Virus record (IMG/VR): IMGVR_UViG_2061766007_003336
Source: an uncultured virus (IMG/VR IMGVR_UViG_2061766007_003336)
Taxonomy: Duplodnaviria > Heunggongvirae > Uroviricota > Caudoviricetes
DNA length: 60,088 nucleotides
Strand: one strand, 5' to 3'
How positions within the stretch are numbered: the first letter of the stretch is position 1; every line of letters starts with the position of its first letter. A program made the position numbers and the translations under genes. Positions 1,417 through 54,851 of the stretch are shown here, one piece after another. Below the pieces are notes generated by a model. It was not told where the DNA came from and made no database searches. It saw only the letters and a program-made list of their open reading frames with translations.

Positions 1417-2670
1417 ATGCTGATGCTGCAACCTCCTTCAAAAAGTCTTTGTGAGGCTCTGGCAAAGGACGCTGGGAACTCACAGTTTCCCATAGAAAAG
1501 ATAGGTTTTCTGCTTTATCAGGAATACAGCTATGACCAGTTGCTAACGCTGGAACCTGAGTTTATTCTCGAAAATATGCTGAAAAACACCAGCATCCACC
1601 AGGAGGAAATAGACTCGAATTTTATCACGAAACTGTATGCTCTGGTGGCGATTCTCAATCAGCCGCTGCTGATCACGCAAAGTCTTATGGCTTTTTACAA
1701 TACGGTGCTAGTATGTAACAACCTGCCGTCGGGGGTAACTGATTTCTCAGAAGTACGACTGCTGCCGTCGAGATACCTGTTCAGGACTTTTCTGGCGGTA
1801 AACGCACTTCTCCCGGACGACATGGACTTTGATCAGATGTACCTGCATCCTAATATTAAGAGTTTTATTTATGACTGCTACAAGGCTGACGACGACATGG
1901 TATTAGACCCGTGTTTTGAGTACCTGCAGGACGAATTTATGGCCCACGAATACACCGAGGCCCAGACAGATCAGTTTCTGCCAGTCGTCGAAACCATCAG
2001 AATGAAGCTGATGCCGATCAGGAAGATAGTCATACATTGTATAAAGAATACTTCCGATCCGATTTCTGAGGACGACAGTGATTTGGGCCAGACGTTGTAT
2101 CATACAGGGGATGACCTGCTTCAGCTCAGACTTAGAATGTATCGGGAGCAGTTCATGCTCAGGGAGCGCGAGCTCTTGTCTCTGTATCCTGAAGACAGCT
2201 ATGAAGGGCGTATGGTAAAGATGGCCCTCGGTAATCTGTTGTACGGGTATTTATTCTGGTTTACGGCAGAAAAGATGCGTGACAAGGAGCTTATTCTGGC
2301 GATCGACCTGGCCGCGATCGAATACCGCGGCGGCAGCGCTCTTACTCGTGTAGCGTATACTGTAGCCTCATCACTGCAGCAGACTTCAGAGGGCTCCCGC
2401 ATAGAACTGGTGTATAAGAAGGAAGATTCTGAGGCTCTTGCGGAATTATACGATAAGATGAAATCTGACGACGTGAAAGAGATTTCGCTTGAAAAGCACA
2501 AGCTGGAATCCGAAGGCAACAGCGTTGACGAGATCAATTCATATATTTATGAGAAATACGGACCGCCCAACATTCTGGTAATTCTTACCTCAAAGGCTGA
2601 AGCGGTCGCGTCAAACATAAAATCTTTCAAGGAATCCCACCCCGGGTGGCAGGTCTACATTCTTACTTAG
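1417..2670 (+). CDS. hypothetical protein (417 aa)
   Basis: Long ORF following the previous one; no recognised motif. Confidence 0.8.
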   Translation: MLMLQPPSKSLCEALAKDAGNSQFPIEKIGFLLYQEYSYDQLLTLEPEFILENMLKNTSIHQEEIDSNFITKLYALVAILNQPLLITQSLMAFYNTVLVCNNLPSGVTDFSEVRLLPSRYLFRTFLAVNALLPDDMDFDQMYLHPNIKSFIYDCYKADDDMVLDPCFEYLQDEFMAHEYTEAQTDQFLPVVETIRMKLMPIRKIVIHCIKNTSDPISEDDSDLGQTLYHTGDDLLQLRLRMYREQFMLRERELLSLYPEDSYEGRMVKMALGNLLYGYLFWFTAEKMRDKELILAIDLAAIEYRGGSALTRVAYTVASSLQQTSEGSRIELVYKKEDSEALAELYDKMKSDDVKEISLEKHKLESEGNSVDEINSYIYEKYGPPNILVILTSKAEAVASNIKSFKESHPGWQVYILT

Positions 2671-3211
2671 ATTTAACGAAAAAACTGTCGAAGAGATCTT
2701 CGGCAAATTGTTTCGGAAGTTCAGGCGCATTGATTTTGTAAAGCCATTCGATTTCTGCGGTCATGGCAGCGACAAACCTGTACAGCGTATGTTCAAGGTT
2801 TTCTTTCGTACTCTGACGTACAGCAGTAACCTGTCTCAGGTATTCCCTTAGCGCGTCCAGTATTGACGCCATCGGACCAGTGGTTTCCCTGGCTACCAGC
2901 GCCTGCCACAACGAGCGTTTGTGTTCGAAGCAGTACTGGGCGACGTTTATCGTAAGGGTGATCAGCTTCAGGTCAGGCGACAGCGCAGACGGCAGTTTGG
3001 TTTTCAGAATCTGGCTGATTTCCGCATCTTCGAACTCCTGGGCAGCCGCGAGCATTTCCTGTTTGTTGTCGAAGTAGTGGTACATTGATGGGACTGTAAT
3101 TCCGGCAGCTTTCGCAACTTTTCTCAGAGAAATGGACTCCATTGTTTCTGTACGGAGAAGCGTTCGTATAGCCTCGAAGATACGTTCTTTAGTCGACATT
3201 GCATTTGTCAT
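2663..3211 (-). CDS. TetR/AcrR-family transcriptional regulator
   Basis: N-terminal HTH TKERIFEAIRTLL...ISLRKVAKAAGITVPSMYHYFDNKQEML; GGAGG RBS. Confidence 0.9.
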   Translation of the reverse strand: MTNAMSTKERIFEAIRTLLRTETMESISLRKVAKAAGITVPSMYHYFDNKQEMLAAAQEFEDAEISQILKTKLPSALSPDLKLITLTINVAQYCFEHKRSLWQALVARETTGPMASILDALREYLRQVTAVRQSTKENLEHTLYRFVAAMTAEIEWLYKINAPELPKQFAEDLFDSFFVKSK

Positions 3212-3412: not shown

Positions 3413-4588
3413 ATGACACAAGTTTACAGGGTTGCAGATCTTTTCGCCGGGGTCGGCGGAATCAGGCTTGGATTCGACCAAGCCTTCGGCAGTATGGTGA
3501 AAACAGTTTTTGTCAGCGATATAGACAAGTTCGCTGCACAGGTTTACACAGACAATTTCGGACATGATCCGGAAGTATCAGGGGACATCACGAAAGTCAA
3601 AACTGAATCGGTACCGGACTTTGACATCTGTCTTGCTGGTTTTCCGTGTCAGGCATTTTCCAGAATGGGCAAGGAAAAAGGTTTTGCCGACCCGAGAGGC
3701 GGACTTTTTCAGGAAGTCGTCAGATTGTGTAAGGAAAAGAAGCCTAAAGTGATTTTTTGTGAGAACGTAAAGGCTTTGATGTCCCACAACAAGGGCGAGT
3801 CTTTTAAAATTATCAAGACAGCTTTTGAAAAAATAGGATATAAAGTTTTTTACGAAGTTGCCAACAGCAGTCAGTTCGGCGTGCCTCAGGGAAGAGAGAG
3901 ATTGTACATCGTATGCTTCAGGAGTGATATTGCTCCCGAGACGTTTGCAGTGACAGGTACGGGGCGCACGGCTCTTAAAGGCGGCATCGAAAGAATCCTT
4001 CTTCCCGACAGCGAAGTAGGTAAGTATGTGCTGTCTGACAGGTATATGGCTTTCCTGGAACGCCGTCGTGAGAAAAATAAAGCAGCCGGCAACGGTTTCG
4101 GATACAAGATTCGTGAAAAAGGCGATATCGCAGGCACTTTAACCTGCTCCGATACCAGTCTCGACGGTAATCTCATCAGATACAAGGACAAACTCCGCAA
4201 ACTCGCTCCGAGAGAATGCGCCAGACTGCAGGGCTTCCCTGATGATTTTAAACTGACGCTTTCTGATACTCAGATCTACAGGCTTATGGGGCAGACAGTT
4301 TCTGTTCCTGTTATTACCAGTATTGCCCGTAGTATTAAAAAAGCGTTAGGGTGTGGTACAGACGAAGTTGGTGTCAGGGTGATTGAAGTCCAGGAGCCAG
4401 AGGCCCCCACCGGTAAAGTTGATCATGTTGATGCCCCTGACGTTTCCGTTCAGGAGAAGTCCCAGCACCTCCGGCATCGTAACAAACGGTATTCCAGCTG
4501 CTGCTGCAGGATGCAGAATGACGGCCGGCCTCTATCGCTTCAGTGCAGGGCCTGTATTGCCAGATTTAAGAGGCGTATGGGGCTCTAA
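3413..4588 (+). CDS. dcm: DNA (cytosine-5)-methyltransferase
   Basis: Motifs DLFAGVGG (I), GFPCQAFS (IV), ENV (VI), PQGRER (VIII), RECARLQGFP (IX), MGQTVSV (X); ~75-aa extra C-terminal tail. Confidence 0.95.
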   Translation: MTQVYRVADLFAGVGGIRLGFDQAFGSMVKTVFVSDIDKFAAQVYTDNFGHDPEVSGDITKVKTESVPDFDICLAGFPCQAFSRMGKEKGFADPRGGLFQEVVRLCKEKKPKVIFCENVKALMSHNKGESFKIIKTAFEKIGYKVFYEVANSSQFGVPQGRERLYIVCFRSDIAPETFAVTGTGRTALKGGIERILLPDSEVGKYVLSDRYMAFLERRREKNKAAGNGFGYKIREKGDIAGTLTCSDTSLDGNLIRYKDKLRKLAPRECARLQGFPDDFKLTLSDTQIYRLMGQTVSVPVITSIARSIKKALGCGTDEVGVRVIEVQEPEAPTGKVDHVDAPDVSVQEKSQHLRHRNKRYSSCCCRMQNDGRPLSLQCRACIARFKRRMGL

Positions 4589-7024: not shown

Positions 7025-7519
7025 ATGATGGGTGATGAAAAAGCACGGATGTCAAGGACGTTTATGACAAGACAGGAGACAAGAGAGTTTTTATTTCAAT
7101 TAAAGGATGATCCCCAATGGAACATTGATGAAGGTGCCTACTACGAGGAGAAGACAAAAGCGATCCTGCTTAAACTGCACTTGGGAGAAGGTATTTCAGC
7201 GTTTCTGAGGGTCGCTGAAGGAACCAATAAAGTGACGCTCGAGTTTGGGTTTCTTGGTAATGTTTACAAAGAGAAGACTGTGAACCGTCTATGGCGTTTC
7301 ACGGCAGAATTTTTGTCGGGTGATCTTAAAAAAGTCGCGCCAGCAGGTGAACGATCCGGACAGGTAACTAAACTCCCTTCCAATATGTCAGGGACCGGAG
7401 ACAAAGTGTACAAACCTTTTGACGGGACCGTTTCAGGAGGTAGTGTAGACCGTGTGGTTTTCGATGACATGTATACAAGTGTGGACCCGCAGACCGGCGG
7501 GAGTTTTCACGGGTGCTGA
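7025..7519 (+). CDS. hypothetical protein
   Basis: ORF; start moved to the ATG after AGGAGGAG. Confidence 0.65.
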   Translation: MMGDEKARMSRTFMTRQETREFLFQLKDDPQWNIDEGAYYEEKTKAILLKLHLGEGISAFLRVAEGTNKVTLEFGFLGNVYKEKTVNRLWRFTAEFLSGDLKKVAPAGERSGQVTKLPSNMSGTGDKVYKPFDGTVSGGSVDRVVFDDMYTSVDPQTGGSFHGC

Positions 7520-7528
7520 GGTGGGCTG

Positions 7529-8134
7529 ATGACTATTGATTCTGATCGTCAGATCTACACTATAACAGCTGAAGTTAAAGGCAGAGGCGGTGTCTCTGCG
7601 GACGTTAAAGTCGGAATATCGGCAGAGACTGCCACTGGTGAGTTGAGAGAGCTCGACTACCCTGAGCAGTGCAAGTCCCTGCCTGCGTATCTGGCTTTTG
7701 ATAAAATCGTTAAAGCGTTTGATCCGGGGGCCAGAACGGCTGTGGATATTGCAGCAGAGCTCGTTGCAACCACCGTGCTCAAGGCGATGGTGCTGGACAA
7801 TAATGTCATATTTCCGGAGCATCCGACATCAAGGTGGATGACAGCCGTTTTAAGGCGTTATCCCAAGCTGATAGATACAGGAGTGGAAGACGCCAAACAC
7901 CAGTCTGAGGCGAACAAGCATCCTGAAACGGTTACCAGGCTGATAGAATACCTGGCGAAAAACATACTCGATCCTGAGGATATCAGCCGGATAGCGGAAG
8001 AAACGCTGAAGGAAATGTGCAGGAAAGTTCCCTGCGAGGGCAATCGGAAACATAATGTGGGTTACCGGAAAGTTTACAAACCCAGACGGCAGAAAGAGCC
8101 TGGAAAGAAGGAGAAGAAGAATGGGAAAGTATAG
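7529..8134 (+). CDS. hypothetical protein
   Basis: ORF with GAGGTG RBS in operon. Confidence 0.7.
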   Translation: MTIDSDRQIYTITAEVKGRGGVSADVKVGISAETATGELRELDYPEQCKSLPAYLAFDKIVKAFDPGARTAVDIAAELVATTVLKAMVLDNNVIFPEHPTSRWMTAVLRRYPKLIDTGVEDAKHQSEANKHPETVTRLIEYLAKNILDPEDISRIAEETLKEMCRKVPCEGNRKHNVGYRKVYKPRRQKEPGKKEKKNGKV

Positions 8135-8765
8135 AGTAATTATTGAAGTAGAGGACCGTACAAATGCAGAAGCATCTGTAAGAAGATATTTTCAGAAAAT
8201 GGATGACCACGGCAGATGGAAAGCTCTTGACCTCAGCTCATGCGACAGCGTACCGGCGTATGTTATCTATGACCGTGTATCTAGAGGGGTGGGCTGCTTT
8301 AAAACCAGAGACGTCTTAGCTGAGGTGACAGTCATGCTGGTCAGAGCGATTATCGCTGCGATAGGTATCCACAGTCTTGGTGAGGACACAGCCGTAGTTG
8401 CCGACAGACTTGAGCACGAGTTTGCTACAGATATCAGGGAAGTCGTTGAGAAATATATTCGGTATGCCGAAGCCGAGCAATCTCCGTTGATTGTGGCTTT
8501 AATTCAGCATTTTTTTGCTACATTGAATTACCAGGTGCTAGCTGAAATGATTATCGATGAAGCGAAGGAGATGCGAACTGAGTATGGTAACAGGATTGCC
8601 GCCGAGCTTGAAGCTGCCGGGGAGCAGACTGACAGGCCGTCTGATGCAGATCCAGGCCATACACCGGAAGATTATACTATTACTTATCAGGGATACGATG
8701 CTGAAGCTGCTAAAGCGTCTCTGAGTCAGATATCCGGCGGGAAAAAAAAGAGGCTGCGTAAATAA
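8121..8765 (+). CDS. hypothetical protein
   Basis: ORF; start moved to MGKYRV after AAGGAG. Confidence 0.7.
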   Translation: MGKYRVIIEVEDRTNAEASVRRYFQKMDDHGRWKALDLSSCDSVPAYVIYDRVSRGVGCFKTRDVLAEVTVMLVRAIIAAIGIHSLGEDTAVVADRLEHEFATDIREVVEKYIRYAEAEQSPLIVALIQHFFATLNYQVLAEMIIDEAKEMRTEYGNRIAAELEAAGEQTDRPSDADPGHTPEDYTITYQGYDAEAAKASLSQISGGKKKRLRK

Positions 8766-8768
8766 TCA

Positions 8769-9848
8769 TGTCCCCCGCCTCCCATAGGCAGGCAGAGGAC
8801 ATTCATCTGCCGTCAATAATAATAGTGCAGATGTCTGGAACGAGTTCAGGTTCGGCGGTGAGCTGGGTCCGTGAAACCGAAGGATGGAAACAGAGCAAGA
8901 CATCCAGGATACCGGCAGGTGCGGGCCTGAACGCGCCTGCTGGGTATACTGGACGTCGCAGCTCTCCATCCGGAGGCGGATCAGCTCCTCGCCGAACTGA
9001 ATCGTGTAAGCATTTGCACGATGTAATTGTTGTATAATTAACTCCAGCAGCGTTGCTGCCTGAAGACAGATGCCTTGAGCAGGAGAGTTCTACGTTAATA
9101 AAGGAAGCTACTGAATCCCAGGTCAGAGCTTGTACACGGATACCAGGCGAGGCGCAGCCAGCCGGGTAGCCTGTACAGCTATGCCTGGGGGGCAGTGAGC
9201 TGAGTTACTTAGTAGAGAGGACCTCTTATAACGGCAGCATTACCGCCTTAAGACACCTCTCCTGCCCGCTTGTTTAGAATCGATACGGATCCTGAAAGAG
9301 GCTCCTTCAGCTGCCGGATGTGGGCTTTGGAAGAGCATACGGGGCGTTAAAGGAGAAATGCCCCGTGTGCCCGAAGCCCACGCCGGAATGCTGAAGGGTG
9401 CCGCTTCAGGAGAACGAATGAGAATTAAATTCCCATTAACAAACGACGGCTTACTGTCATAAAACAAGTAAATGCCTGATTTCAATAATAACGGCGCCTC
9501 AGGAGTCTCATCCCCGGAGAGGAGCCTACCACGTACTTGTGAATTGATTACGGCGGACGTCGTCTTCGCTGTGAGGGTTGATGCGTCCGAGCGTTGCTGC
9601 TCGGGGTGCGCCGCAGTAAAGGCGAACGCGCGAGCCTGCACGAGAAGCATCACCGGCAGCATGAGAGGTACGCAGAAACTCCTTCACAGTTGAAGATGAC
9701 GCCGACGGTGATCACGATATTCACATACGTGGTCGGCGGAGCCCCGGGGTGAGTCTCCGGAGGAGCTTGGTGAATACAGATATTGAACCTGCAGTCAGTT
9801 GCTGACGTGTATCAGCGAAGTCAGGCGTGAAGAAACTATTTTCTTCAC
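8769..9848 (+). ncRNA. large structured non-coding element (~1.1 kb) of long imperfect rod hairpins; family unknown
   Basis: Hairpins at 8825-9019, 9106-9201, 9290-9411 and 9497-9763. Long-range stems 8787-8798/9256-9266, 8807-8813/9231-9237, 9472-9482/9818-9828. Non-Watson-Crick pairs are mostly G-T on the + strand. No credible CDS. Confidence 0.75.
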
Positions 9849-9862
9849 ATTTACTTATGACA
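9827..9862 (-). promoter_or_regulatory. recurring TGTCATAAGTA motif with adjacent 9-bp hairpin, pointing left into the structured element
   Basis: TACTTATGACA at 9852-9862 is identical to copies at 21895, 31902 and 59408; hairpin GTGAAGAAA/TTTCTTCAC at 9827-9848. Confidence 0.55.
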
Positions 9863-9899
9863 TTTTTCCACCGCTGGGGTAAGTTTTTTTATTTTTTTC

Positions 9900-9944
9900 T
9901 TGACAACCTAACATTTATTATTAAGGTACCTAACAGACTGTTAG
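9900..9944 (+). promoter_or_regulatory. promoter and operator-like palindrome upstream of the DNA polymerase
   Basis: TTGACA (9900-9905), TAAGGT (9922-9927), perfect palindrome CTAACAG-A-CTGTTAG (9930-9944). Confidence 0.5.
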
Positions 9945-9988
9945 TCATGGACAGGCTGCAGTCGGACAGAAAAGAACAGGAGGTTGAT

Positions 9989-12979
9989 ATGGAACAGTAC
10001 GCACTTTTTGAAGATTACCCTGAATACGTTCAGACCATGATGTATGAGATTACCGGCGATGCAGAGCTGTATAAGTACTGCCCTGTACGTGAAGGCAGAC
10101 TGAAGATGGTTCTGGGAAACAAGGGCATGAGCTACACTGATGCCGAAGAGCAGATTGTCAGGATCAGGTCTTATTTTACTAAAACCGTGAAAGCGTCTTT
10201 GAGAGAAGACACTATCGTGATTTTTCCGGCGTATTTCTCTGCCAAATCAGGACGACCGAATATGACCTGCGCCGAGAAGCACTTTTCTTTATTTACGAAT
10301 TACATCAGCTGTATGACAAGCACGGACGGGGAGAGACCGAGGATCCTGTGTATGCGATTCAACTATGCGGCACAGCGGGACCCTTACACCGGCAATTTTC
10401 CGAGTCGCAAAGGACGTAGTGCATCCGGCAACGAAATTCCTATTGAAGACGAGACTATTACGGCTAAGCACCTTACTGTGATAGCGTCAGGCATCAAATA
10501 CTGGCTTAAGTCACATCCTGAGATTAAAAACCTCGTTTCACCCTCACTGGAGTTACTGTCAGTTTTGTTTCCTGATTCAGGACTTCCGGGATCATTCAAA
10601 GGAGCTGCCCTCCGTTTATTTACAGGAGCATTGGCGTTCGGAGCAGGCGACAACCTGGAGCACAGGGATTATACGTTTACCGTAATGCCGAGTATGCTCA
10701 AGTACGTTAAATACGGCGACGGCATGCTGGATGTTACCGCCGACATTCTTTCTTACATATTTCATCCGCAGGAACAGCCGGAGGTCAAGAGCGTAATAAT
10801 TAACGATATGAAGGCAGTCGAGCAGATCAAAGCTAAGGCTAAGGCTGCAGGACTTCCCATCTCGCTGGACTTTGAGACGACAGGTCTCAATCCCAGATAT
10901 TACGATCAGCACATTATCTCCTGCCACCTGTCGAACGGCAGGGTAGCCTGGGGGTTTCTGGTAAACCACCCGTGCTATCCCGAGACTAACGGGATGCCGA
11001 TGGTAGAGGCTCTGATGGATGATCCTGAAATGACACTGATTATCCAGAATGCTGTGTATGATACCAAGTGGTATATGGCAATGACAGGAAAGTTCCCCAA
11101 GGCTAAGATATATGATACCATGCTTCTTGACCACTGGTTAAATGAGACGCTTGGATCCACCTCTTTGAAAGCCGGCATGGGTGGAGCCTACAGCATGGAC
11201 CTGCAGATCCCGCGCTACCTGCATTATTCATCACATAAGCCGATGCTTGACGAGGCCATGGATAAGATTGAGTTTGTCAATCCGTACAAGGCCCCGTCAG
11301 CAGCCGAGATCGAAGCATTTACTGTAAAGGAGGTACGTGAACTGGTGCAGCTGGTCAATGACCCTGAACGGCGTGAGCCCAATTCAGGAAAGTATGCAGG
11401 TCTCAGCTATGATATGCTGTTTGATTACGGTAACAGTGATGCTGCGGCGACCTGGCGCATATTTGATAAGCAGCGCGAAATGATCACAAAGCAGTGCGGT
11501 GAGAAGTGGCCGAGAGTTATCGAGGAGCTCATGCCGAAACTGATTTACAATACGGCAAGAATGGAGATAACCGGTGCACCGCTGAATTATGAAATGATCA
11601 TTGAAAAGATCAAGGACGTCAATTTGTCCGCAAAGCAGTGCAAGGACAGGGTCGAAGAAGCTACACACTTTCAGTTTGATCTTAATTCACCCAAGCAGCT
11701 TCTTGACTACCTTACCGAGCATGAGAAAATTGATCCTGAGATGCTTTACAGTGTTAAGAAGGATGACATCTGCGTTGACATAGAAACACTCAGCCGGTTT
11801 GAGAAGACGATTCCGTGGATGCCGGATTTTCTTTCCTACAAGAAGGCTATGAAGTTGAAAAACACCTATCTGATCCCGATAGTTTTGAAAAGTCACTGCG
11901 GTGTTCTGTATTTCGGTATCGATCTTACAGGAACTGTTACCGGCAGACTTGCCAGCCGAAACCCCAACATTCAGAATCTGCCCAAGGCGCTCAAGATATG
12001 TGGTAAGAAAGTAGGACTCAAAGAGGTTATACAGGCTCCGGAAGGCCATATCTTCTCTGATATGGATTTGTCATCTGCTGAGGTTAAAGTTCTTACGGTC
12101 GTATGTCCTGATGAGAAGCTGGTCGACGTTTTGAAACGCGGTCTTGACGCTCATTCCTACACCGCGTCTCTGGTATCACAGACTTCGCCGAATCCTAAGT
12201 CCTACGAGGAGATTTATCACTCTCATCAGAAGGCAGACCACGTCATTGACGAACCGATGACGGAAGAAGACGGCGTGAATGAAGCATTAAGGAAGAACGC
12301 AAAACGAGTTACGTTCGGGGCTATTTACCGGATAGGGAAGCAAGGTCTGGCAACGCAACTTGTGTATAAATACCAGGACAATCCTGAGCTCAGCTTTAAG
12401 CAGAATCAGCTTGAGCGTCAGAAAGTAGGGGAAGTTATCGCTCAGGATCTGCTGGACAAGCTGTTCCACGAGGTTTATCCGACACTTGGAAAATCGTTTG
12501 AGCGGTCGGACTTCAACGTCTTCAACAGGTATTACGGAGAGAGTATCTTCGGACGGCGCAGACGCTATACGCATTCGATTATCCCGATGGTGAACCATCT
12601 GTTCCTCGGTACAGGGTTGTACGCTAAAGACGGGGCCTCAACACTTAGTCTGGCGGACTGTATGACGTTTATTCCGTCACAGCGCTGTTTCAGGCAGAAT
12701 GTCAATTTTGAGGTTCAGTCGCCAACTTCCGATTATATGCAGTTCTATATCAACTATATAATTACGCAGTGCAGTGATATTCCTGACTTTAATTTTCATT
12801 TGACTGTCCACGACAGTGCTTTGTTCTCGTTTGTGGATACAAAAGAAAACTACGACAAATTCAAAAAAGTCTGCGACTACGGTATGGACGTATACCTGAA
12901 GTCACTGGATGACAGACTGCCGGTAACGATCGGTTACGGTATGGATACGGCTTACAATTATTGCAAGATAGGAGGCTAA
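9989..12979 (+). CDS. polA: family A DNA polymerase with 3'-5' exonuclease and an extra N-terminal domain
   Basis: SLDFETTG (ExoI), QNAVYD (ExoII), YGNSDA (ExoIII), TVTGRLASRNPNIQN, DLSSAEVK (motif A), RKNAKRVTFGAIY (B), TVHDS (C). Start placed at the ATG after AGGAGG rather than the track's 9827. Confidence 0.95.
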   Translation: MEQYALFEDYPEYVQTMMYEITGDAELYKYCPVREGRLKMVLGNKGMSYTDAEEQIVRIRSYFTKTVKASLREDTIVIFPAYFSAKSGRPNMTCAEKHFSLFTNYISCMTSTDGERPRILCMRFNYAAQRDPYTGNFPSRKGRSASGNEIPIEDETITAKHLTVIASGIKYWLKSHPEIKNLVSPSLELLSVLFPDSGLPGSFKGAALRLFTGALAFGAGDNLEHRDYTFTVMPSMLKYVKYGDGMLDVTADILSYIFHPQEQPEVKSVIINDMKAVEQIKAKAKAAGLPISLDFETTGLNPRYYDQHIISCHLSNGRVAWGFLVNHPCYPETNGMPMVEALMDDPEMTLIIQNAVYDTKWYMAMTGKFPKAKIYDTMLLDHWLNETLGSTSLKAGMGGAYSMDLQIPRYLHYSSHKPMLDEAMDKIEFVNPYKAPSAAEIEAFTVKEVRELVQLVNDPERREPNSGKYAGLSYDMLFDYGNSDAAATWRIFDKQREMITKQCGEKWPRVIEELMPKLIYNTARMEITGAPLNYEMIIEKIKDVNLSAKQCKDRVEEATHFQFDLNSPKQLLDYLTEHEKIDPEMLYSVKKDDICVDIETLSRFEKTIPWMPDFLSYKKAMKLKNTYLIPIVLKSHCGVLYFGIDLTGTVTGRLASRNPNIQNLPKALKICGKKVGLKEVIQAPEGHIFSDMDLSSAEVKVLTVVCPDEKLVDVLKRGLDAHSYTASLVSQTSPNPKSYEEIYHSHQKADHVIDEPMTEEDGVNEALRKNAKRVTFGAIYRIGKQGLATQLVYKYQDNPELSFKQNQLERQKVGEVIAQDLLDKLFHEVYPTLGKSFERSDFNVFNRYYGESIFGRRRRYTHSIIPMVNHLFLGTGLYAKDGASTLSLADCMTFIPSQRCFRQNVNFEVQSPTSDYMQFYINYIITQCSDIPDFNFHLTVHDSALFSFVDTKENYDKFKKVCDYGMDVYLKSLDDRLPVTIGYGMDTAYNYCKIGG

Positions 12980-28462: not shown

Positions 28463-29266
28463 TTAGCCGATCTGGAAAAGTTTGTCACCCTTCCGGACTT
28501 TCTGGCCCGGATTGACCAGAATATCCAGAAGGACACCTTTCTGGCCGGCCGTAACACGGCCGGACGACAGGATCAGGACTACGGTCTTCGGTGTGACTGC
28601 CTGCCCCTCGCAGGCTCTCACCTCGATGACGTTTGCGGCCTTCGTGGCGCAAACGTAACCGTTGCCCTCATCCTCAGCCTTCGGCTCTTCAGCCTTGGGT
28701 TCAGCCTTGGGTTCCGGTTCTGGCTCTGCCTTCGGCTCTTCAGCCTTGGGTTCAGCCTTGGGTTCCGGTTCTGGCTCAGCCTTCGGCTCTTCAGCCTTGG
28801 GTTCAGCCTTGGGTTCCGGTTCTGGCTCTGCCTTCGGCTCTTCAGCCTTCGGCTTTGGCTCAGCCTTGCCTCCCACTTCAACAAGTTCGTTGGCGGGAGG
28901 ATTTTTGAACAGCATCTGTGATATTGCTGTGTTTCTCGTTAAGTCGAGAAACGCGAATATCCATAACAGCACTGAGCCAACCCCCCAGCCCATGAGCCAG
29001 AGGATTCCTCCCCAGATAACCAGGGTTCCCTGGGCCAGGTATTCAACCGCCCATCTTTTAGGCGATCCTTTCTCATCGAAGACACCAGCGGTTTCTGCCA
29101 CGTCTCTAACTACTGGCAGATGCCAGTGGCAGGACAACCACATAATGACCGCTAATAATACCGCCGGGAACAAGTCCCAGCAGATCCAGGTTACCCCAAA
29201 GCCGACGCATCCGTCGACTAGTCTAAATTTTCCCAGTCTTGTGTTTACTAATTGTCTTTTTTCCAT
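28463..29266 (-). CDS. membrane protein with Pro/Glu/Lys/Ala linker and C-terminal biotinyl/lipoyl-like domain
   Basis: Two hydrophobic blocks, KAEEPKAEPEPEPKAEP repeats, C-terminal EGQAV...GVLLDILVNPGQKVRKGDKLFQIG. Confidence 0.75.
   Translation of the reverse strand: MEKRQLVNTRLGKFRLVDGCVGFGVTWICWDLFPAVLLAVIMWLSCHWHLPVVRDVAETAGVFDEKGSPKRWAVEYLAQGTLVIWGGILWLMGWGVGSVLLWIFAFLDLTRNTAISQMLFKNPPANELVEVGGKAEPKPKAEEPKAEPEPEPKAEPKAEEPKAEPEPEPKAEPKAEEPKAEPEPEPKAEPKAEEPKAEDEGNGYVCATKAANVIEVRACEGQAVTPKTVVLILSSGRVTAGQKGVLLDILVNPGQKVRKGDKLFQIG
28677..28855. repeat. 51-bp tandem repeat (~3.5 copies) encoding a 17-aa linker
   Basis: GCCTTCGGCTCTTCAGCCTTGGGTTCAGCCTTGGGTTCCGGTTCTGGCTC(T/A) units at 28677, 28728 and 28779, partial at 28830. 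Confidence 0.95.
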
Positions 29267-34490: not shown

Positions 34491-34615
34491 GTTTCTTATA
34501 CCTGATTCGAATTAAAAAATCACTTTTTCACGGAACTTTTCTTCCGGCCGTTTTCTTGTCTTTCCTACTCCTATATATATAATGGGGCGTTATTGAGTTT
34601 TTGAGGGAGACTGCA

Positions 34616-37600
34616 GTGGGACCGTTCGATTCCGAAAAGATTAAAGGAACTTTCAGCAAGGATATTTCAGAAGTCAGACAGAACGACGTATGGTCATCGG
34701 CAACGATCAATAATTTCGTCAGGACCGTGTATGATTTGTTCAGAATGGAGTCGGCGTACAGGCTGACCTATAAAAATTCCGGCCAGGAGATCGGGGAGCG
34801 GCTGCTCAAGGATTTTGACGGCAGCAGTCCGGATTATCCTTCTCCGTCTCACCGCCCGTTTGCTATGATCCCGGATCTGCATTTCAGTGTTCAGCAGGAT
34901 GAAGGCGGCCAGTCAGGCTATATTAAGGTTACTCCGGTGTTACGGCCGATGCCTGGTGACGCTGAGGATGACTCCGTCTTTACTCACAACGATCGCGACA
35001 ATGAGCAGCGCTACAGATTGTTTTACGGCACCGGGGATGTCTCTCAGGACGTAAAGCCATATTCAATGTTCCGTTATCCCCGGACTTCCTCAGGAGAGGA
35101 GAGTGTTCCGGGAACAGGAACTGCTGCAGAGGATAATTACTGCATTATCACTTATCAGTGCGGTGCTGATAGCGCTGGTTATGGAGGGTCAGGGTCTGTG
35201 ACTCCGAAGTATTCCAGAATGGTTGAGATAGTCTGTATCTATGACCCTGGTATCAGTGAGGGGAACAGTGTTATTACCGTCGAGCGGGCTACTGATATGC
35301 CTCACACTCTGCCTCCGGTAAAGTTTACGTTTACGTTTGGAAAATCGGTTACAGTGCAGAACTTTGCAGACAGGCTTAACGGTCTGGTTTACGGGGAAGG
35401 GGCCCCTGACAAGATATTCATTGCCCGTTTGGCAGGAGATACCGGCGAGGCTAACGACGCCACTCTTCTCGAAGCCTTATTCGATGGAGACGAGGCGACG
35501 CGGCAAGTCAGAGTGCTGAGGTTTGTTCCCGTACGGTCCTGCATATCTTTCCATCCTGCACCTGGCGGAGGTGATACTTTGGATTTAGTTTCCATTGAAA
35601 GTCTGACGGGCAGGGGCGACAACTTTGGAACCATAAGTCTTACCGAATATGATGGAACCTGGGAAACAGGCGCTGTCTTTAGACATACGGGAACGTACGG
35701 CTTTATCATAAAGAACAAAATCAACGAAGCTCCGAGTATTGAGTATGCCTCAACTCTGCCGCTGGTTTATATTCCGAACAAAGTCAATACAGAGCATTAT
35801 GAGCCGGTAGTTACTGATTCAGAGCCGACCACGCCCGTCTCTCTCCCTGCCTGGTATGAGGATATGAGCAGCAAAAAGATCACTATGGCTGATACAACGG
35901 ACTTCAGTTCGGATTACTTTTTTGTTCCGTACATCACAATCACGGACAGAACGATCGAAATTGCAGGCTTTAGTATCGATATTGACACTCTGCTGCTTTA
36001 TGAAGAGTTGACAGCTGCGGTTATCCCTGGGCCTTACATGCCAAAACTCGAGGAGTCTAAGGTTCTGTATGATTCGTATAAGTCGTTTAGTAATAAGCCG
36101 TCCAGAAAAAGACTGACTGATAAGGCTGCTACCGTTTTCCAGGAAATGCAACCGGCGGTCAATCCTGATTTACTAAGCGGATCTGAAGATATTGAACTAG
36201 GTTCGTCACAGGCGCTTGGTTTAGGTGCAAATAAAAAACTTAAAGGCGACGGTGCGGTAAAGTCTTTCGCACTTGACCGTACTCTGCAGATGATGCTCGG
36301 TCTGAACTGGAAACTGAATGATATTATCTGGATCGACCCGTTGCTGCTTGGAAGGCCTGATTATGAGGACCGTCAGCGCCACATGTACGGATCTGTTGCG
36401 CGTGCTATCGAGGACGATGCGAAGTGGGGCAGAGGAAGTCTGATACGTCCCACAACGGTGTTTATCCATGTGACTGACGCAGAAGACGACAGCCCTGCTT
36501 ACTCGAATGATCCTGAAGACAGCACCTACCAGAGCGAGGCGTCGTCACCACGGCGTAACATGTGGCGGGAAATCTATGCCGACTACCTTCCTGAAGGAGT
36601 CCGCCATCTTGCATTGCGTGCGACAGTCAGCAGTAGGGAGTCTGCTATAACTCAGCCCGGATTCGGGCTTGATTTCGCCTATGGAAAGACCAATCTGTAT
36701 CTTAGAGTGATTCAGCACCCTGCATTATTCAGTACAGTTGCTTCAAACTGTTGGGAGCATGACTCTACAGTCAGTGACGGCACTGGGATGAAGCATTTGA
36801 TCTGTCATACAGACCTGTATCAGCAGAGTAGCGGCAGTCAGGCTTTTCCAGGGTTCGGCGACATTGATCTTAACGTAGACTACCACCCGCTTAAAGGGCA
36901 GGATTTTTCCGGGGTTCGCCACGTCTGTATAGATGATATGTATGCCGGACGTCGTGTACCGAATAAAATTCCTAACAACAAAGTCCGTTTGTCAGGCATT
37001 AAAGCACATACCCTGACCTATATACCGAGAGCTTTCTGTTTTGACGGCTCAAAGTATGCAGCACAAGGCCTGACTTGTCTTAAGTCCTCTCCGTCAGATA
37101 CCTGGGAAGAATACGGAAACTATATTAAGATCCCTGGAACAGACGCTGCTGGGATACCGGATGGCGGGCGCTTGGATTGGGTCGGGTTTAACCGTGAGGT
37201 TATAATAGACCAGGACTGCGCGATAATGTCTGTTGATATGTCTATAGATGTTACAGCGGAAGGATGTACACCTAGCAGTCGGGTCATCACGGGTAGCTGT
37301 ATTTCTTATCTTAATTTTAACGCCAGCATTCCTACTATCAGACTAGTTCACGGACGCATGGATGTTTCTTACCCGCAGGGTGGTGATTCTTCATCGTGCC
37401 CGGTTACGATTCCAGCAGCCGGACAGCTTATGTTATGGAGGAGCGATTCAGGCTCTACCTGTACAGCGGATGTTACAATGCTACAGATAATGAACCGCAA
37501 AGCATCTCATGGAGGCGATAACACTGTGGTGTTTACTCCGGTAGCATGGCCGTTCAGGATTTCGGTTACCGGGCAGCTGATGTCTCCGTTTGCTCCAGCG

Positions 37601-51924: not shown

Positions 51925-51934
51925 ATTTCACCTC

Positions 51935-52141: not shown

Positions 52142-52603
52142 TGTCTTTCTCCTCATTAAAGTTAGCAAATTCGGGGAAACAGCCGCTCCGGACCGCTTCC
52201 CTTCTCTTTCTTTTACGTGCAGCCGTCGGTGAATCTGTCACCAGCGGCTGGAGACCTTATGAAATCTTTTTAAATAATAGAAATCTGGATGGTGGTAGCG
52301 TAAGCTCTGTATGTGTGTGTCAGATCCTCGGAGCTGTTTGCGAAGCAAAAACACACATTAGGAGCTGTAGCGGAGACGATCCAGACGGTCGTTAAAAATA
52401 ACGGTCGTACGTATCCCGGAGGCTTACCTCCTTAAAAAGATTAGTCAGTTGGTCTCTCGTGAAGTTTCATACATAGATATTTGTATCCAGGAGTCCTACG
52501 CGCTGGCTGCGGTGTCATAGCCGCAGGAGATGATGCCGCGCCGAGCGTGGGCATCTGGATACTAAATAACGGATAGAATGATATCCGCTTTCGGTATCGG
52601 CAG

Positions 52604-52653
52604 NNNNNNNNNNNNNNNNNNNNNNNNNNNNNNNNNNNNNNNNNNNNNNNNNN
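52604..52653. other. assembly gap (50 N)
   Basis: Run of N. Confidence 1.
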
Positions 52654-53168: not shown

Positions 53169-53334
53169 GAACTGTTTTCGTTGTCCTAAGCGAAAGGAGC
53201 ACGCCCCCCGGAACGGCCCGCTTCTAGACCCTTCAGGTCTAGAGCGGGCCTGAGGGAAACAGGGCGTGTGAACCAGGCGTTCGGTTCACGTGTCTTTTTC
53301 AGTAGAACCGGCGTTACCGGCTGCAGAACAGTTC
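53169..53334 (-). ncRNA. multi-stem structured leader or small RNA (~165 nt)
   Basis: Closing stem GAACTGTT/AACAGTTC, CACGCCC/GGGCGTG, GGCCCGC-TCTAGACC/GGTCTAGA-GCGGGCC, GTGAACC/GGTTCAC. Confidence 0.45.
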
Positions 53335-53402
53335 ATATAAGGATCCGCAAAGTTTAGTTATAATCGGGGAACCTTAACCAGGACGCTCCGCGGGTTAGGG
53401 AA

Positions 53403-53675
53403 TCAGACGACGTCAGAGAGTCTGATCCCGTCCCGCGGGATCGTCATGGTGTAGGTGAAGCATCCAGATGTGGAGATACCTCTTCTGTGCGCAGGCTTAC
53501 CTGCTGAGCTTTGCTTATTTTTTTTAAAAGGCCTGATCTGAAAGAGATAACCCGGAGGGCTTATCGGTTCCAGAAGGGAAATGAACACGAAGTAATCTGC
53601 GCGTTCCGCGCTGTGCCTGAAAGCGGAGTGTTCATCCCGAATGCTTTGATACCGCCTGCGGTTACAGGCTTTCAC
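53403..53675 (-). CDS. possible small hypothetical protein
   Basis: ORF fills the gap on the local coding strand; weak support. Confidence 0.3.
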   Translation of the reverse strand: MKACNRRRYQSIRDEHSAFRHSAERADYFVFISLLEPISPPGYLFQIRPFKKNKQSSAGKPAHRRGISTSGCFTYTMTIPRDGIRLSDVV

Positions 53676-53681
53676 GCCTTT

Positions 53682-54269: not shown

Positions 54270-54478
54270 GGCCTCCTCCGTGCTGCTTTAAGGATTTCGG
54301 TAATGTCACCGGTTTTATCGAATTTGATATGCTGGAGCTCAAGCAGCCCCTTGAGCATTCTGACATCTCTCTCAAGCTGCTCTGCTGCCCTGTCCTCAGA
54401 TGCCCTGTCTGTTTGTGCAAACAGTACACCGATATCCTGTTCGATCTGCGTGTACAAAACCTTAATTGTATTTGCCAT
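54251..54478 (-). CDS. small hypothetical protein
   Basis: GAGAGG RBS; helical. Confidence 0.6.
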   Translation of the reverse strand: MANTIKVLYTQIEQDIGVLFAQTDRASEDRAAEQLERDVRMLKGLLELQHIKFDKTGDITEILKAARRRPCRTNV

Positions 54479-54482
54479 CTAT

Positions 54483-54529
54483 TTGACCTCTCTTGTGTAG
54501 TTTGATAAAGTTGACACCATATCTTGTGT
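54483..54529. promoter_or_regulatory. NrdR-box-like site with a degenerate second copy 31 bp away
   Basis: ACACCATATCTTGTGT at 54514-54529; TCTTGTGTA repeated at 54491 and 54522. Confidence 0.5.
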
Positions 54530-54568
54530 ATGGTATGTTGACCTGAACCTAACGGTTCCGACTCCTGA

Positions 54569-54637
54569 TTTTTCTTTTTTTTTCCTGTCCAGCCGGCCTG
54601 ACAGTTCCTGAAGGAACTGTCTGACCGGTCTTTTTTT
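54569..54637. terminator. long hairpin terminator
   Basis: CCGG..GACAGTTCC-TGAA-GGAACTGTC..CCGG followed by a T run on +. Confidence 0.6.
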
Positions 54638-54839
54638 ACTTCAGGTTGTAGATGAAGACATCGACAGCTCCTGCTATCAGAAGGATCACAAAGGAAATTT
54701 CAACGGCGATTTTTCTGAATGTTTCTTCGGAACTGTTCAGGTCAGTCCAGGTTGGCAGGAAAAAGCCGATAAAAACAATAGAAACGGTAGGAACGTACAG
54801 TGCTCTGCAGAACGCCGTTAATATGACCAGCGTGTTCAT
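54636..54839 (-). CDS. small two-TM membrane protein
   Basis: AGGAGAG RBS, two hydrophobic helices. Confidence 0.6.
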   Translation of the reverse strand: MNTLVILTAFCRALYVPTVSIVFIGFFLPTWTDLNSSEETFRKIAVEISFVILLIAGAVDVFIYNLK

Positions 54840-54851
54840 GCTGCTCTCCTG

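What the first reader, a model, noticed from the sequence alone, without database searches (positions are those of the whole stretch)
8769..9848. 1.1-kb non-coding element built from giant rod-like hairpins next to the DNA polymerase gene
Seen: four long imperfect hairpins lie at 8825-9019 (~195 nt), 9106-9201, 9290-9411 and 9497-9763 (~265 nt). Example arms: GCATACGGGGCGTT/AATGCCCCGTGTGC and TGTGGGCTTTGG/CCGAAGCCCACG. Long-range stems (8787-8798/9256-9266, 8807-8813/9231-9237, 9472-9482/9818-9828) close them into two domains. TCAATAATAA occurs near the start of both domains (8813, 9482). Bulges and many G-T pairs argue for selection on a folded single strand rather than a recent inverted duplication. 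I do not recognise it as tRNA, tmRNA, RNase P or an intron. Inference: a large ncRNA (or two) of a possibly new class, a dsRNA-like decoy, or a folded ssDNA element.
Basis: partly seen in the sequence, partly recalled or inferred. Interest (0 to 1): 0.88.

Follow-up and report, generated by a model that had tools for sequence, protein, structure and literature searches.

The report
Phage noncoding RNA of giant hairpins
A 1.1-kb gene-free stretch of an uncultured gut phage folds into four very long imperfect hairpins, turns up in RNA libraries, matches no known RNA family, and is most likely a new kind of stable phage noncoding RNA whose job is unknown.

Summary
The hairpins are real and far beyond chance. 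Against 100 dinucleotide shuffles, H1, H3 and H4 give z = -10.7, -11.4 and -11.4 on the + strand, and H2 gives -4.7. Coding controls give about 0. The stretch is the strongest folding outlier in the 60-kb window.

It is not protein-coding. The only ORF with a relative is broken by a stop and frameshifts in the window. That frame changes at about 11% of residues between two phages whose polymerases are 99.3% identical.

The 22 substitutions inferred in that relative leave the fold energy unchanged. Random substitutions of the same kinds cost 11-30 kcal/mol.

Metatranscriptome contigs from two studies lie on H1, H3 and H4 but not on the upstream genes.

No Rfam family matches, and no copy was found in the phage, plasmid, IMG/VR or GTDB collections.

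The element is accessory. A relative with 68-88% polymerase identity carries unrelated ORFs at this site.

Best reading: + strand, stable long-hairpin noncoding RNA(s). A decoy function for double-strand RNA binders is only inferred. The closest analogue is the ICP1 noncoding RNA. Multi-sequence covariation, strand and transcript ends remain untested.

The parts
8766..9884 (+). Whole accessory noncoding module. It runs from the stop of the upstream gene (8765) to the point where similarity with relatives resumes, at the polymerase promoter region.
   Evidence: No Pfam or PHROG hit for its ORFs. Loose ends of other contigs fall at 9884/9885. L084 shares only the promoter and polymerase.
8769..8801 (+). 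Short hairpin directly after the upstream stop codon; a weak terminator or processing hairpin.
   Evidence: pair probabilities 0.75-0.99. No T run follows it.
8813..8822 (+). TCAATAATAA motif, copy 1, single-stranded, 3 nt before H1.
   Evidence: only two exact copies in 60 kb, both in the element.
8825..9019 (+). Hairpin H1, 195 nt, 75 predicted pairs.
   Evidence: z -10.7. Mean pair probability 0.92. RNA contigs at 8809-9052 and 8869-9039.
9064..9275 (+). Hairpin H2 (core 9106-9201, outer stem 9079-9087/9257-9265, side hairpin 9224-9253). It is the weakest of the four.
   Evidence: z -4.7 on +, -5.6 on -. No RNA contig lies on 9053-9256 in either RNA run.
9290..9411 (+). Hairpin H3, 122 nt, 50 pairs. 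It holds the longest uninterrupted helices (14 and 12 bp) and has the apical loop AAAGGAGA.
   Evidence: z -11.4. RNA contigs at 9270-9411 and 9274-9422. Five natural substitutions leave the energy at -85.7 against -84.9.
9455..9483 (+). 5' strand of the stem that closes domain 2; pairs with 9817-9826 and 9849-9862.
   Evidence: Three substitutions in a relative (9455, 9470, 9473) fall here, and their partners could not be seen.
9482..9491 (+). TCAATAATAA motif, copy 2, just before H4.
9493..9767 (+). Hairpin H4, 275 nt, 103 pairs.
   Evidence: z -11.4 on +, -6.4 on -. RNA contig at 9400-9835. Eight natural substitutions give -153.8 against -153.9.
9817..9862 (+). 3' strand of the domain-2 closing stem. 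It encloses a 9-bp terminator-like hairpin at 9827-9848.
9885..9988 (+). Boundary feature, not part of the element: the polymerase promoter-like TTCTTGACA region, leader and ribosome-binding site.
   Evidence: The same TTCTTGACA lies about 90-110 nt before the polymerase start in L084. Single pattern match in the window.

Best explanation
The gap 8766-9884 is an accessory, non-protein-coding module of an uncultured gut phage. It is expressed as RNA from the + strand, the same direction as the flanking replication genes.

The RNA folds into a chain of very long imperfect hairpins: H1, H3 and H4, with a weaker H2. These survive as stable RNA species while the neighbouring mRNA does not.

Shown: the fold, the absence of coding capacity, natural changes that are neutral to the fold, presence in RNA libraries, and accessory status.

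Inferred: the + strand; production by read-through from the upstream operon followed by processing in the A/U-rich single-stranded linkers, including the two TCAATAATAA sites; and the function.

The function I consider most likely is action in trans as long double-strand-like RNA that binds and titrates a host factor recognising structured or double-stranded RNA. Candidates are RNase III, an RNA chaperone or an RNA-sensing defence protein. This would resemble the way adenovirus VA RNAs work (recalled, not tested here).

My odds: an RNA-level functional element of any kind about 0.65; trans-acting stable ncRNA(s) 0.4; the decoy mechanism specifically about 0.2.
For: 1. Folding. MFE is -527.7 kcal/mol on + against -500.3 on -. 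z is -10.7, -11.4 and -11.4 for H1, H3 and H4 on +, and always weaker on - for these three. The element is the top outlier of the whole window.

2. Not coding. Three ORFs in the gap have no Pfam or PHROG hit. The 89-aa ORF has no relative. The 140-aa minus-strand ORF has one relative, P0099 (HMMER over 1.84 billion proteins adds none). Against P0099 the window frame carries a stop and two frame changes. That frame differs at 22 of 192 compared residues, while the polymerase on the same contig is 989/996 identical. Indels of +2, -1 and +1 nt occur in other relatives.

3. Fold kept. The 22 inferred substitutions give -85.7 against -84.9 (H3), -153.8 against -153.9 (H4) and -287.0 against -286.7 (9270-9848). 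Random substitutions of the same base changes give means of -73.9, -140.0 and -256.3. They are as stable as the natural set in 6 of 300, 0 of 200 and 0 of 60 trials.

4. RNA. In two metatranscriptome runs from two studies, 5 of the 6 laid contigs lie on 8809-9052, 8869-9039, 9270-9411, 9274-9422 and 9400-9835. One lies in the polymerase gene and none on 7500-8808.

5. Strand hints. G.U 18 against A.C 6 among arm mismatches. Unpaired bases inside the hairpins are 116 purines to 40 pyrimidines.

6. G+C is 0.54-0.56 in the element against 0.40-0.50 in the flanks.

7. Accessory. The site is occupied by unrelated ORFs in L084, and distant relatives have gaps of about 60-110 nt.
Against: Contigs cannot show strand, ends or level, and RNA libraries can hold DNA (caveats). 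The runs were also found with this stretch as the query.

Only one relative gave usable substitutions. They were inferred from amino-acid changes, so changes silent in that frame are invisible.

Checked pair by pair against the window's fold, 10 of the 11 changes at paired sites break the pair, 1 keeps it, and 9 lie at unpaired sites. Stability is kept only after refolding.

Region 9455-9862 loses 5.8 kcal/mol.

The fold is kept on both strands and is also strong with DNA parameters.

Templated quasi-palindrome correction could mimic selection (my inference). The purine and G.U asymmetries match the general skew of this + strand, so they may be mutational.

No convincing promoter or terminator was found: 3 promoter-like sites against 1.9 expected, 4 terminator-like against 1.2.

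H2 has no RNA contig. No partner protein is known. The element is seen only in one narrow phage lineage.
Confidence: 0.4

Rival explanations
1. A cis-acting RNA element of the polycistronic transcript. On this reading the hairpins form an array of processing and stabiliser structures, for example RNase III-type sites and 3' protective hairpins as between phage T7 genes (recalled). They would separate the upstream operon from the polymerase unit and have no function in trans.
For: The orientation matches both flanking gene blocks. The element sits exactly between a stop codon and the next promoter-like site. Other gene spacers of this phage are also hairpin-rich: z -9.0 at 52200-52603, -5.8 at 53203-53681, -4.2 at 54270-54851. 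The RNA contigs fit stable processing products.
Against: Over 1 kb with stems of 50-100 pairs is far more than processing or protection needs. The weaker spacers elsewhere show what suffices. The hairpin region at 52200-52603 is more stable on the strand opposite to its neighbouring genes, which points to independent RNA genes. A relative manages without the element at this site.
Confidence: 0.25
2. Non-functional or selfish palindromic DNA. On this reading the hairpins are decaying inverted duplications or miniature mobile elements (long imperfect palindromes such as ERIC or Correia, recalled) that landed at a recombination-prone module junction. They would be transcribed passively, and the RNA would persist only because it is hard to degrade.
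For: The element lies at a module boundary that differs between relatives (loose ends at 9884/9885). It is confined to a narrow lineage. Its sequence divergence is similar to or above that of the coding flanks: in run X6, 27 differences in 716 nt for element pieces against 43 in 1665 nt for coding pieces. An earlier scan note (e1-947539) read similar palindromic repeats this way.
Against: There is no second copy in the window, in 160 related loci, or in the phage, plasmid, IMG/VR and GTDB collections. The four hairpins are unrelated to each other. Natural substitutions spare the fold. Arm mismatches are mostly transversion-type A.G (38) rather than the transition types expected from decay (G.U 18, A.C 6). 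The divergence is below the synonymous rate of 0.11 seen in the upstream genes of run X4, though the count inside the element for that run was not shown.
Confidence: 0.2
3. A DNA-level element that acts as folded single-stranded DNA or as cruciforms. Examples are a replication origin, or lagging-strand priming signals like the single-strand origins of rolling-circle plasmids and filamentous phages (recalled), placed next to the replication genes.
For: It lies next to the SNF2 helicase, thymidylate kinase and family-A polymerase genes. The fold is also strong with DNA parameters: -56, -40, -44 and -78 kcal/mol against -22 for a control. Fold conservation is not strand-specific. No primase was recognised in the window, though most of its genes have no annotation.
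Against: The element is G+C-rich rather than A+T-rich. It has no iterons or tandem repeats and no skew switch. It is absent from the same site in relatives that keep the polymerase, which is odd for an essential origin. RNA contigs cover whole hairpins.
Confidence: 0.12
4. A protein-coding gene on the minus strand, namely the 201-aa ORF seen in a relative, of which the window's 140-aa ORF is a broken copy.
For: The ORF is open for 201 codons in one relative. A gene caller listed the 140-aa version.
Against: In the window the frame has a stop and two frame changes. There are further indels in other relatives. There are 22 changes in 192 residues against 7 in 996 for the polymerase of the same two phages. 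No Pfam hit appears even at E <= 10. No other relative was found among 1.84 billion representatives.
Confidence: 0.03

Closest known systems
Abundant ~800-nt noncoding RNA of Vibrio phage ICP1 (Barth et al. 2020, PMC7567579; passages of section 9 read)
   Same: Both lie in an ORF-less gap of about 1 kb in a lytic-type phage, have no tRNA beside them, have RNA detected, and have unknown function.
   Different: There is no sequence similarity to any record in the phage collection. ICP1's transcript is shown by RNA-seq of infected cells to be the phage's most abundant. Here there are only metatranscriptome contigs. I did not examine the architecture of the ICP1 RNA.
ROOL and GOLLD large ornate RNAs (Weinberg et al. 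2017, PMC5737381, passages read; cryo-EM preprint 10.1101/2024.12.08.627333, abstract only)
   Same: All are large (500-800 nt and more) structured RNAs often carried by phages. ROOL was first found in cow rumen data.
   Different: No match to any Rfam model at E <= 1, and none at gathering score. [quoted passage not shown] This element is a chain of long rods with no tRNA in 60 kb.
Adenovirus VA RNAs and similar viral double-strand-like decoy RNAs
   Same: Both are abundant viral RNAs built as long imperfect hairpins with purine-rich internal loops, and both are accessory to replication.
   Different: VA RNAs are eukaryotic, about 160 nt, and have a known target (PKR). No bacterial target is known here. 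This is a resemblance in design only.
Phage RNAs that engage host defence: cabRNA sensed by CBASS cyclases (Banh et al. 2023, PMC10686824, search listing and start of abstract only); pseudo-ToxI and RNA anti-CRISPRs (recalled)
   Same: These are structured phage RNAs that bind host immune proteins. They show that phage RNA can be a ligand or a decoy.
   Different: cabRNA is transcribed from terminase genes and activates defence rather than blocking it. No defence system or host is known for this phage.
RNase III processing hairpins between phage T7 genes (recalled)
   Same: Both are imperfect hairpins with internal loops in gene spacers of a phage transcript, and the cleavage products are stable.
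   Different: T7 sites are single hairpins of roughly 50-60 nt. Here there are four hairpins of 96-275 nt filling 1.1 kb.
Long palindromic MITEs (ERIC/IRU, Correia; recalled, and earlier scan note e1-947539)
   Same: Both are noncoding imperfect palindromes of 100-270 bp in spacers that are transcribed as hairpins.
   Different: MITEs are multi-copy families. No second copy of any of the four hairpins was found.

Membership tests
Any Rfam family (ROOL, GOLLD, OLE, HEARO, introns, ribozymes, tmRNA, RNase P) | Match to the family covariance model | tested here: not met
   No match at E <= 1 on 8000-10500. At E <= 10, three chance-level matches, the best a miRNA-precursor model at 22 bits against a gathering score of 74. 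Nothing in the whole window at gathering score.
ROOL / GOLLD | Frequent adjacency to tRNA genes | tested here: not met
   ARAGORN finds no tRNA or tmRNA in the 60-kb window.
ICP1-type abundant phage long ncRNA | ORF-less gap of about 1 kb in a phage genome | tested here: met
   Gap 8766-9988. Its ORFs have no family and the one with a relative is broken between close relatives.
ICP1-type abundant phage long ncRNA | Highly abundant discrete transcript during infection | tested here: inconclusive
   RNA-library contigs from two studies cover H1, H3 and H4 and not 7500-8808. Contigs give no level, strand or ends.
ICP1-type abundant phage long ncRNA | Sequence homology to the ICP1 RNA | tested here: not met
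   blastn with 11-nt words against 50,697 phage records gives no match.
MITE / palindromic repeat family | Multiple dispersed copies | tested here: not met
   No other copy in the window or in 160 loci, nor in phages, plasmids, IMG/VR or GTDB. The host genome is unknown, so copies there cannot be excluded.
MITE / palindromic repeat family | Terminal inverted repeats with target-site duplication | not tested
   No empty site at nucleotide resolution was available. L084 differs in all upstream genes.
Phage replication origin | A+T-rich unwinding region, iterons, strand-skew switch | tested here: not met
   G+C 0.54-0.56. Only short two-copy direct repeats. No tandem repeats here. Cumulative skew rises through the region.
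Single-strand origin / priming signal (ssDNA hairpin) | Strand-specific folded ssDNA recognised for priming | not testable with these tools
   The fold is stable with DNA parameters on both strands. Function needs a priming assay.
Protein-coding gene | Reading frame kept and under purifying selection among relatives | tested here: not met
   Stop and frame changes. 22 of 192 residues changed against 7 of 996 in the polymerase. No Pfam family.
RNase III substrate / dsRNA decoy | Binding or cleavage by a dsRNA-binding protein | not testable with these tools
   The longest uninterrupted helix is 14 bp.

The most novel reading that the evidence does not exclude
This phage carries a previously undescribed class of viral RNA. 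The class would be a cassette of independently folding, 120-275-nt, double-strand-like hairpin RNAs, possibly with a second, smaller cassette at 52200-52603. The RNAs would accumulate in infected cells and act as decoys or sponges for a bacterial factor that recognises double-stranded or structured RNA, such as RNase III, an RNA chaperone or an RNA-sensing immune protein. That would make it a bacterial counterpart of adenovirus VA RNAs, carried as an exchangeable anti-host module.
Probability: 0.2. Interest if true: 0.85.

Novelty: new variant of a known kind. Interest (0 to 1): 0.6.

Why it matters
Large noncoding RNAs of phages (GOLLD, ROOL, the ICP1 RNA) are abundant but unexplained. This element adds a structurally different example: rods rather than ornate junction-rich folds. 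It also comes with unusual support for an uncultured phage, namely natural variants that spare the fold and signal in RNA libraries from two studies.

If the hairpins titrate a host RNA-binding or RNA-sensing protein, that would be an RNA-based counter-defence in bacteria of a kind so far known mainly from animal viruses. It would also give a handle (RNA pull-down) for finding the host factor.

If the element is only a stable processing by-product or palindromic junk, it is a caution for structure-based RNA discovery in metatranscriptomes.

Tried and rejected
**Homologues of the element**
- blastn against phages and plasmids found nothing.
- Exact patterns from H3 and H4 found nothing in IMG/VR, and the H3 pattern found nothing in GTDB genomes.
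- blastn and tblastx against 160 fetched loci and the rest of the window gave only chance-level hits.

**Polymerase relatives**
- The single protein found none in IMG/VR. The alignment A1 found only 21-32% matches there and none in GTDB.
- It found eleven family members in JGI metagenomes. None has the element before the polymerase.
- The closest relatives (P0001-P0005) are in collections whose DNA I could not fetch.

**Variants and covariation**
- The variant table of read laying was cut at 8474, so the letters that differ inside the element were never seen. No covariation test on real alignments was possible.
- Pair-by-pair inspection of the inferred substitutions does not by itself show compensation.

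**Other dead ends**
- There is no whole genome for this window.
- ORF searches found no relative for the 89-aa ORF, and four other ORFs are not in the protein collection.
- The upstream protein 8121-8765 gave no usable look-alike in the ESM Atlas.
- The promoter and terminator scan is near chance.
- A promoter reading of TCAATAATAA does not fit an RNA contig that starts at 8809.
- I considered avoidance of helices long enough for RNase III, then dropped it. By a rough hand estimate, a longest run of 11-14 bp is about what random placement of the interruptions would give.
- The Obelisk/viroid-like idea is rejected. The element lies on DNA contigs of 13-120 kb, and the 201-aa ORF is not conserved.
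- Earlier scan notes hold nothing for this genome or for look-alike stretches.

Full report
**What the window is**

The window is a piece of an uncultured phage.
- Around the finding, all on the + strand, lie a C-5 DNA methylase, an SNF2-type helicase, a thymidylate kinase, three proteins with no family match and a 996-aa family-A DNA polymerase starting at 9989.
- Of 38 further ORFs only 4 match a PHROG family.
- The best polymerase match among 50,697 phage records is 24% identical.
- No whole genome is held.
- The runs that hold most of the stretch are bovine gut metagenomes that may be the source. The laid runs include a sheep gut metatranscriptome.

**The observation**

Between the stop codon at 8765 and the polymerase start at 9989 there is no ORF with a family.

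Folding is exceptional.
- The + strand of 8769-9870 folds at -527.7 kcal/mol and the - strand at -500.3.
- The fold holds H1 8825-9019, H2 9106-9201 (outer stems to 9064-9275), H3 9290-9411 and H4 9493-9767, with 394 pairs of which 24 are G.U.
- Against 100 dinucleotide shuffles, z is -10.7, -4.7, -11.4 and -11.4 on +, and -8.9, -5.6, -8.1 and -6.4 on -. Two coding controls are near 0.
- In a G+C-corrected scan of 300-nt windows over all 60 kb, the four strongest + strand outliers are all in the element.
- Mean pair probabilities in the hairpins are 0.92-0.97.

Its two long-range stems in domain 1 have probability about 0 and are replaced by 8809-8814/9445-9450 and 9079-9087/9257-9265.

TCAATAATAA occurs only at 8813 and 9482 in the whole window.

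**Not a known RNA, not a protein**
- Rfam gives nothing at E <= 1, three chance-level hits at E <= 10, and nothing at gathering score in the whole window. There is no tRNA or tmRNA.
- The 89-aa + strand ORF over H1 has no relative.
- The 140-aa minus-strand ORF (9240-9662) has one relative, P0099, of 201 aa. HMMER over 1.84 billion representatives adds none, and Pfam finds nothing in it at E <= 10.
- Laid on the window, P0099 needs two frame changes and reads through a stop.
- In the three ungapped segments compared, 22 of 192 residues differ. One of these is the start codon and was left out of the substitution list.
- P0099 lies on a 16,486-nt contig of the same length as the one that carries polymerase P0106. 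P0106 is 989/996 identical to the window's polymerase. The frame is therefore not under protein-level constraint.
- Indels of +2 (9268/9269), -1 (9468) and +1 (9661) in other relatives point the same way.

**Is the fold under selection?**

No nucleotide sequences of relatives could be fetched. I therefore inferred 22 nucleotide changes from the amino-acid differences of P0099 (20 single changes and one double).

Taken pair by pair against the window's fold, the result is unimpressive. Of the 20 single changes, 9 lie at unpaired sites, 1 keeps its pair and 10 break it.

After refolding, however, the variant is as stable as the window:
- H3: -85.7 against -84.9.
- H4: -153.8 against -153.9.
- 9270-9848: -287.0 against -286.7.

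Random sets with the same base changes, at sites visible in the same frame, average -73.9, -140.0 and -256.3. They reach the variant's stability in 6 of 300, 0 of 200 and 0 of 60 trials.

Some details fit this reading.
- In H3, 9373 G>A turns U.G into U-A.
- 9334 A>C together with 9371 C>G can form a new C-G pair one step along the helix. This is my reading.

Limits of this test:
- It rests on one relative.
- Changes silent in that frame are invisible.
- Indels were ignored.
- The result holds on both strands.
- Region 9455-9862 loses 5.8 kcal/mol, because three changes hit the 5' strand of the closing stem and their partners lie outside the ORF.

On divergence, element pieces in run X6 differ by 27 in 716 nt against 43 in 1665 nt for coding pieces. 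In run X4 the upstream genes show pS 0.11 and pN 0.027. X4's count inside the element was not shown.

**RNA or DNA, and which strand?**

In two metatranscriptome runs from two studies, 5 of 6 laid contigs fall on the element:
- 8809-9052 and 8869-9039 (H1).
- 9270-9411 and 9274-9422 (H3).
- 9400-9835 (H4).

One contig lies in the polymerase gene. None lies on 7500-8808 or on H2.

Contigs do not give strand, ends or level, DNA can contaminate RNA libraries, and the runs were found with 8600-10100 as the query. This is a hint of a stable RNA, not proof.

The + strand is favoured by several observations:
- The energy gap between strands.
- G.U 18 against A.C 6 among arm mismatches.
- Purine-rich unpaired sites, 116 against 40.

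All three could also reflect the general purine and G excess of this + strand.

G+C is raised in the element, 0.54-0.56 against 0.40-0.50. That suits a structured RNA and does not suit an unwinding origin. There are no iterons, tandem repeats or skew switch.

**Accessory status**
- Eleven polymerase relatives were found in JGI metagenomes.
- L084 (68% identity over the N-terminal half; L081 from the same data set is 88% over the C-terminal half) has 1494 nt upstream. These hold ORFs unrelated to anything upstream of the window's polymerase. Similarity begins at a shared TTCTTGACA promoter-like motif.
- Four relatives of 35-46% identity (L082, L085, L087, L091) have only about 60-110 nt before the polymerase. 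L086 (40%) also has a large ORF ending about 100 nt upstream.
- Contigs in X4 and X6 break away from the window at 9884/9885.
- The element is therefore an exchangeable module at a junction, seen only in a lineage about 93-99% identical to the window.

**Mechanism**

The best-supported reading is a + strand noncoding RNA module. It is probably made by read-through from the upstream operon, since no convincing promoter was found. It would then be cut in the A/U-rich linkers, leaving H1, H3 and H4 as stable species.

The function is inferred. Long, imperfect, double-strand-like RNAs carried as an accessory cassette most plausibly act in trans by titrating a host factor that binds structured RNA.

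The rivals are:
- a purely cis-acting processing, stabiliser or insulator array;
- selfish or decaying palindromic DNA;
- a DNA-level priming or origin element.

Protein coding is nearly excluded.

**Comparison with known systems**

The closest functional analogue in print is the roughly 800-nt, most abundant, unexplained transcript in a 1-kb ORF-less gap of phage ICP1 (PMC7567579, section 9 passages). That paper itself compares the transcript with GOLLD and ROOL.

The element is not a member of ROOL or GOLLD: there is no model match, no tRNA neighbour, and the architecture is rods rather than junctions (PMC5737381 passages).

VA-RNA-like decoys, T7 RNase III sites, single-strand origins and ERIC/Correia elements are resemblances recalled from memory.

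Three literature searches found no description of such an element. A fourth search served only to cite cabRNA. Four searches cannot show that nothing is in print.

**Verdict**

The feature is real and statistically extreme, noncoding, and most likely a new family of phage structured RNA with an unusual rod-chain design. Evidence for expression and for selection on the fold is suggestive but thin. The function is open.

Noticed in passing
window 52200-52603 (the gap starts at 51925; a run of 50 N lies at 52604-52653): A second hairpin-rich noncoding stretch with two imperfect hairpins of about 90-100 nt. MFE is -164.2 kcal/mol (z -9.0) on + against -132.6 (z -7.0) on -, although both neighbouring ORFs are on the - strand. 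The + strand purine fraction is 0.54 in the core against 0.43-0.49 in the flanks. It has no significant sequence similarity to the main element. The run of N cuts it short..
   Followed up: partly
window 8818, 9487, 52273, 52397, 52565 (+ strand): AATAATAG and AATAACGG together occur 10 times in the window on both strands. Five of these lie on the + strand inside the two hairpin-rich noncoding stretches, mostly in single-stranded linkers next to a hairpin. In 100 shuffles each, 5 reached the observed 4 copies of AATAATAG and none reached the observed 6 of AATAACGG. This may be a shared processing, binding or promoter motif.
   Followed up: partly
window 53203-53681 and 54270-54851: Two further gene spacers of about 500 nt are moderately structured (z -5.8/-6.0 and -4.2/-4.0). 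They hold terminator-like hairpins and some 70-100-nt hairpins.
   Followed up: partly
window 9885-9925 and L084 1385-1420: A shared TTCTTGACA promoter-like motif lies about 90-110 nt before the polymerase start in the window and in a 68% relative. Contigs of other runs diverge from the window exactly at 9884/9885, and a short look-alike of this region exists elsewhere in run X4.
   Followed up: partly
L086 655-1297: In a relative with 40% polymerase identity, an A+T-rich ORF-poor stretch carries many repeated GTGACA / ACGTCAT-like words and folds with z -9.1. It looks more like an origin or operator region than like the element studied here.
   Followed up: partly
window 7529-8134 and 8121-8765: The two proteins of unknown family upstream of the element look alike by eye in a central stretch (SLPAY... 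/ SVPAY...). They may be paralogues. I did not align them. The second gave no usable Atlas look-alike.
   Followed up: no
window 28673-28849: A 51-nt unit repeats 3.5 times at 97% identity, nested with 12-nt periodicity, inside the minus-strand ORF 28463-29266. This suggests a repetitive protein segment.
   Followed up: no
window 2663-3211 (-), 3413-4588 (+): A TetR-family regulator gene lies opposite a C-5 cytosine methylase gene at the start of the replication block.
   Followed up: no
window 34601-40321: A 1906-aa ORF, followed by ORFs of 841, 728, 480 and 794 aa, has no PHROG match at E <= 1e-5. The structural and late region of this phage is essentially unannotatable by that library.
   Followed up: no
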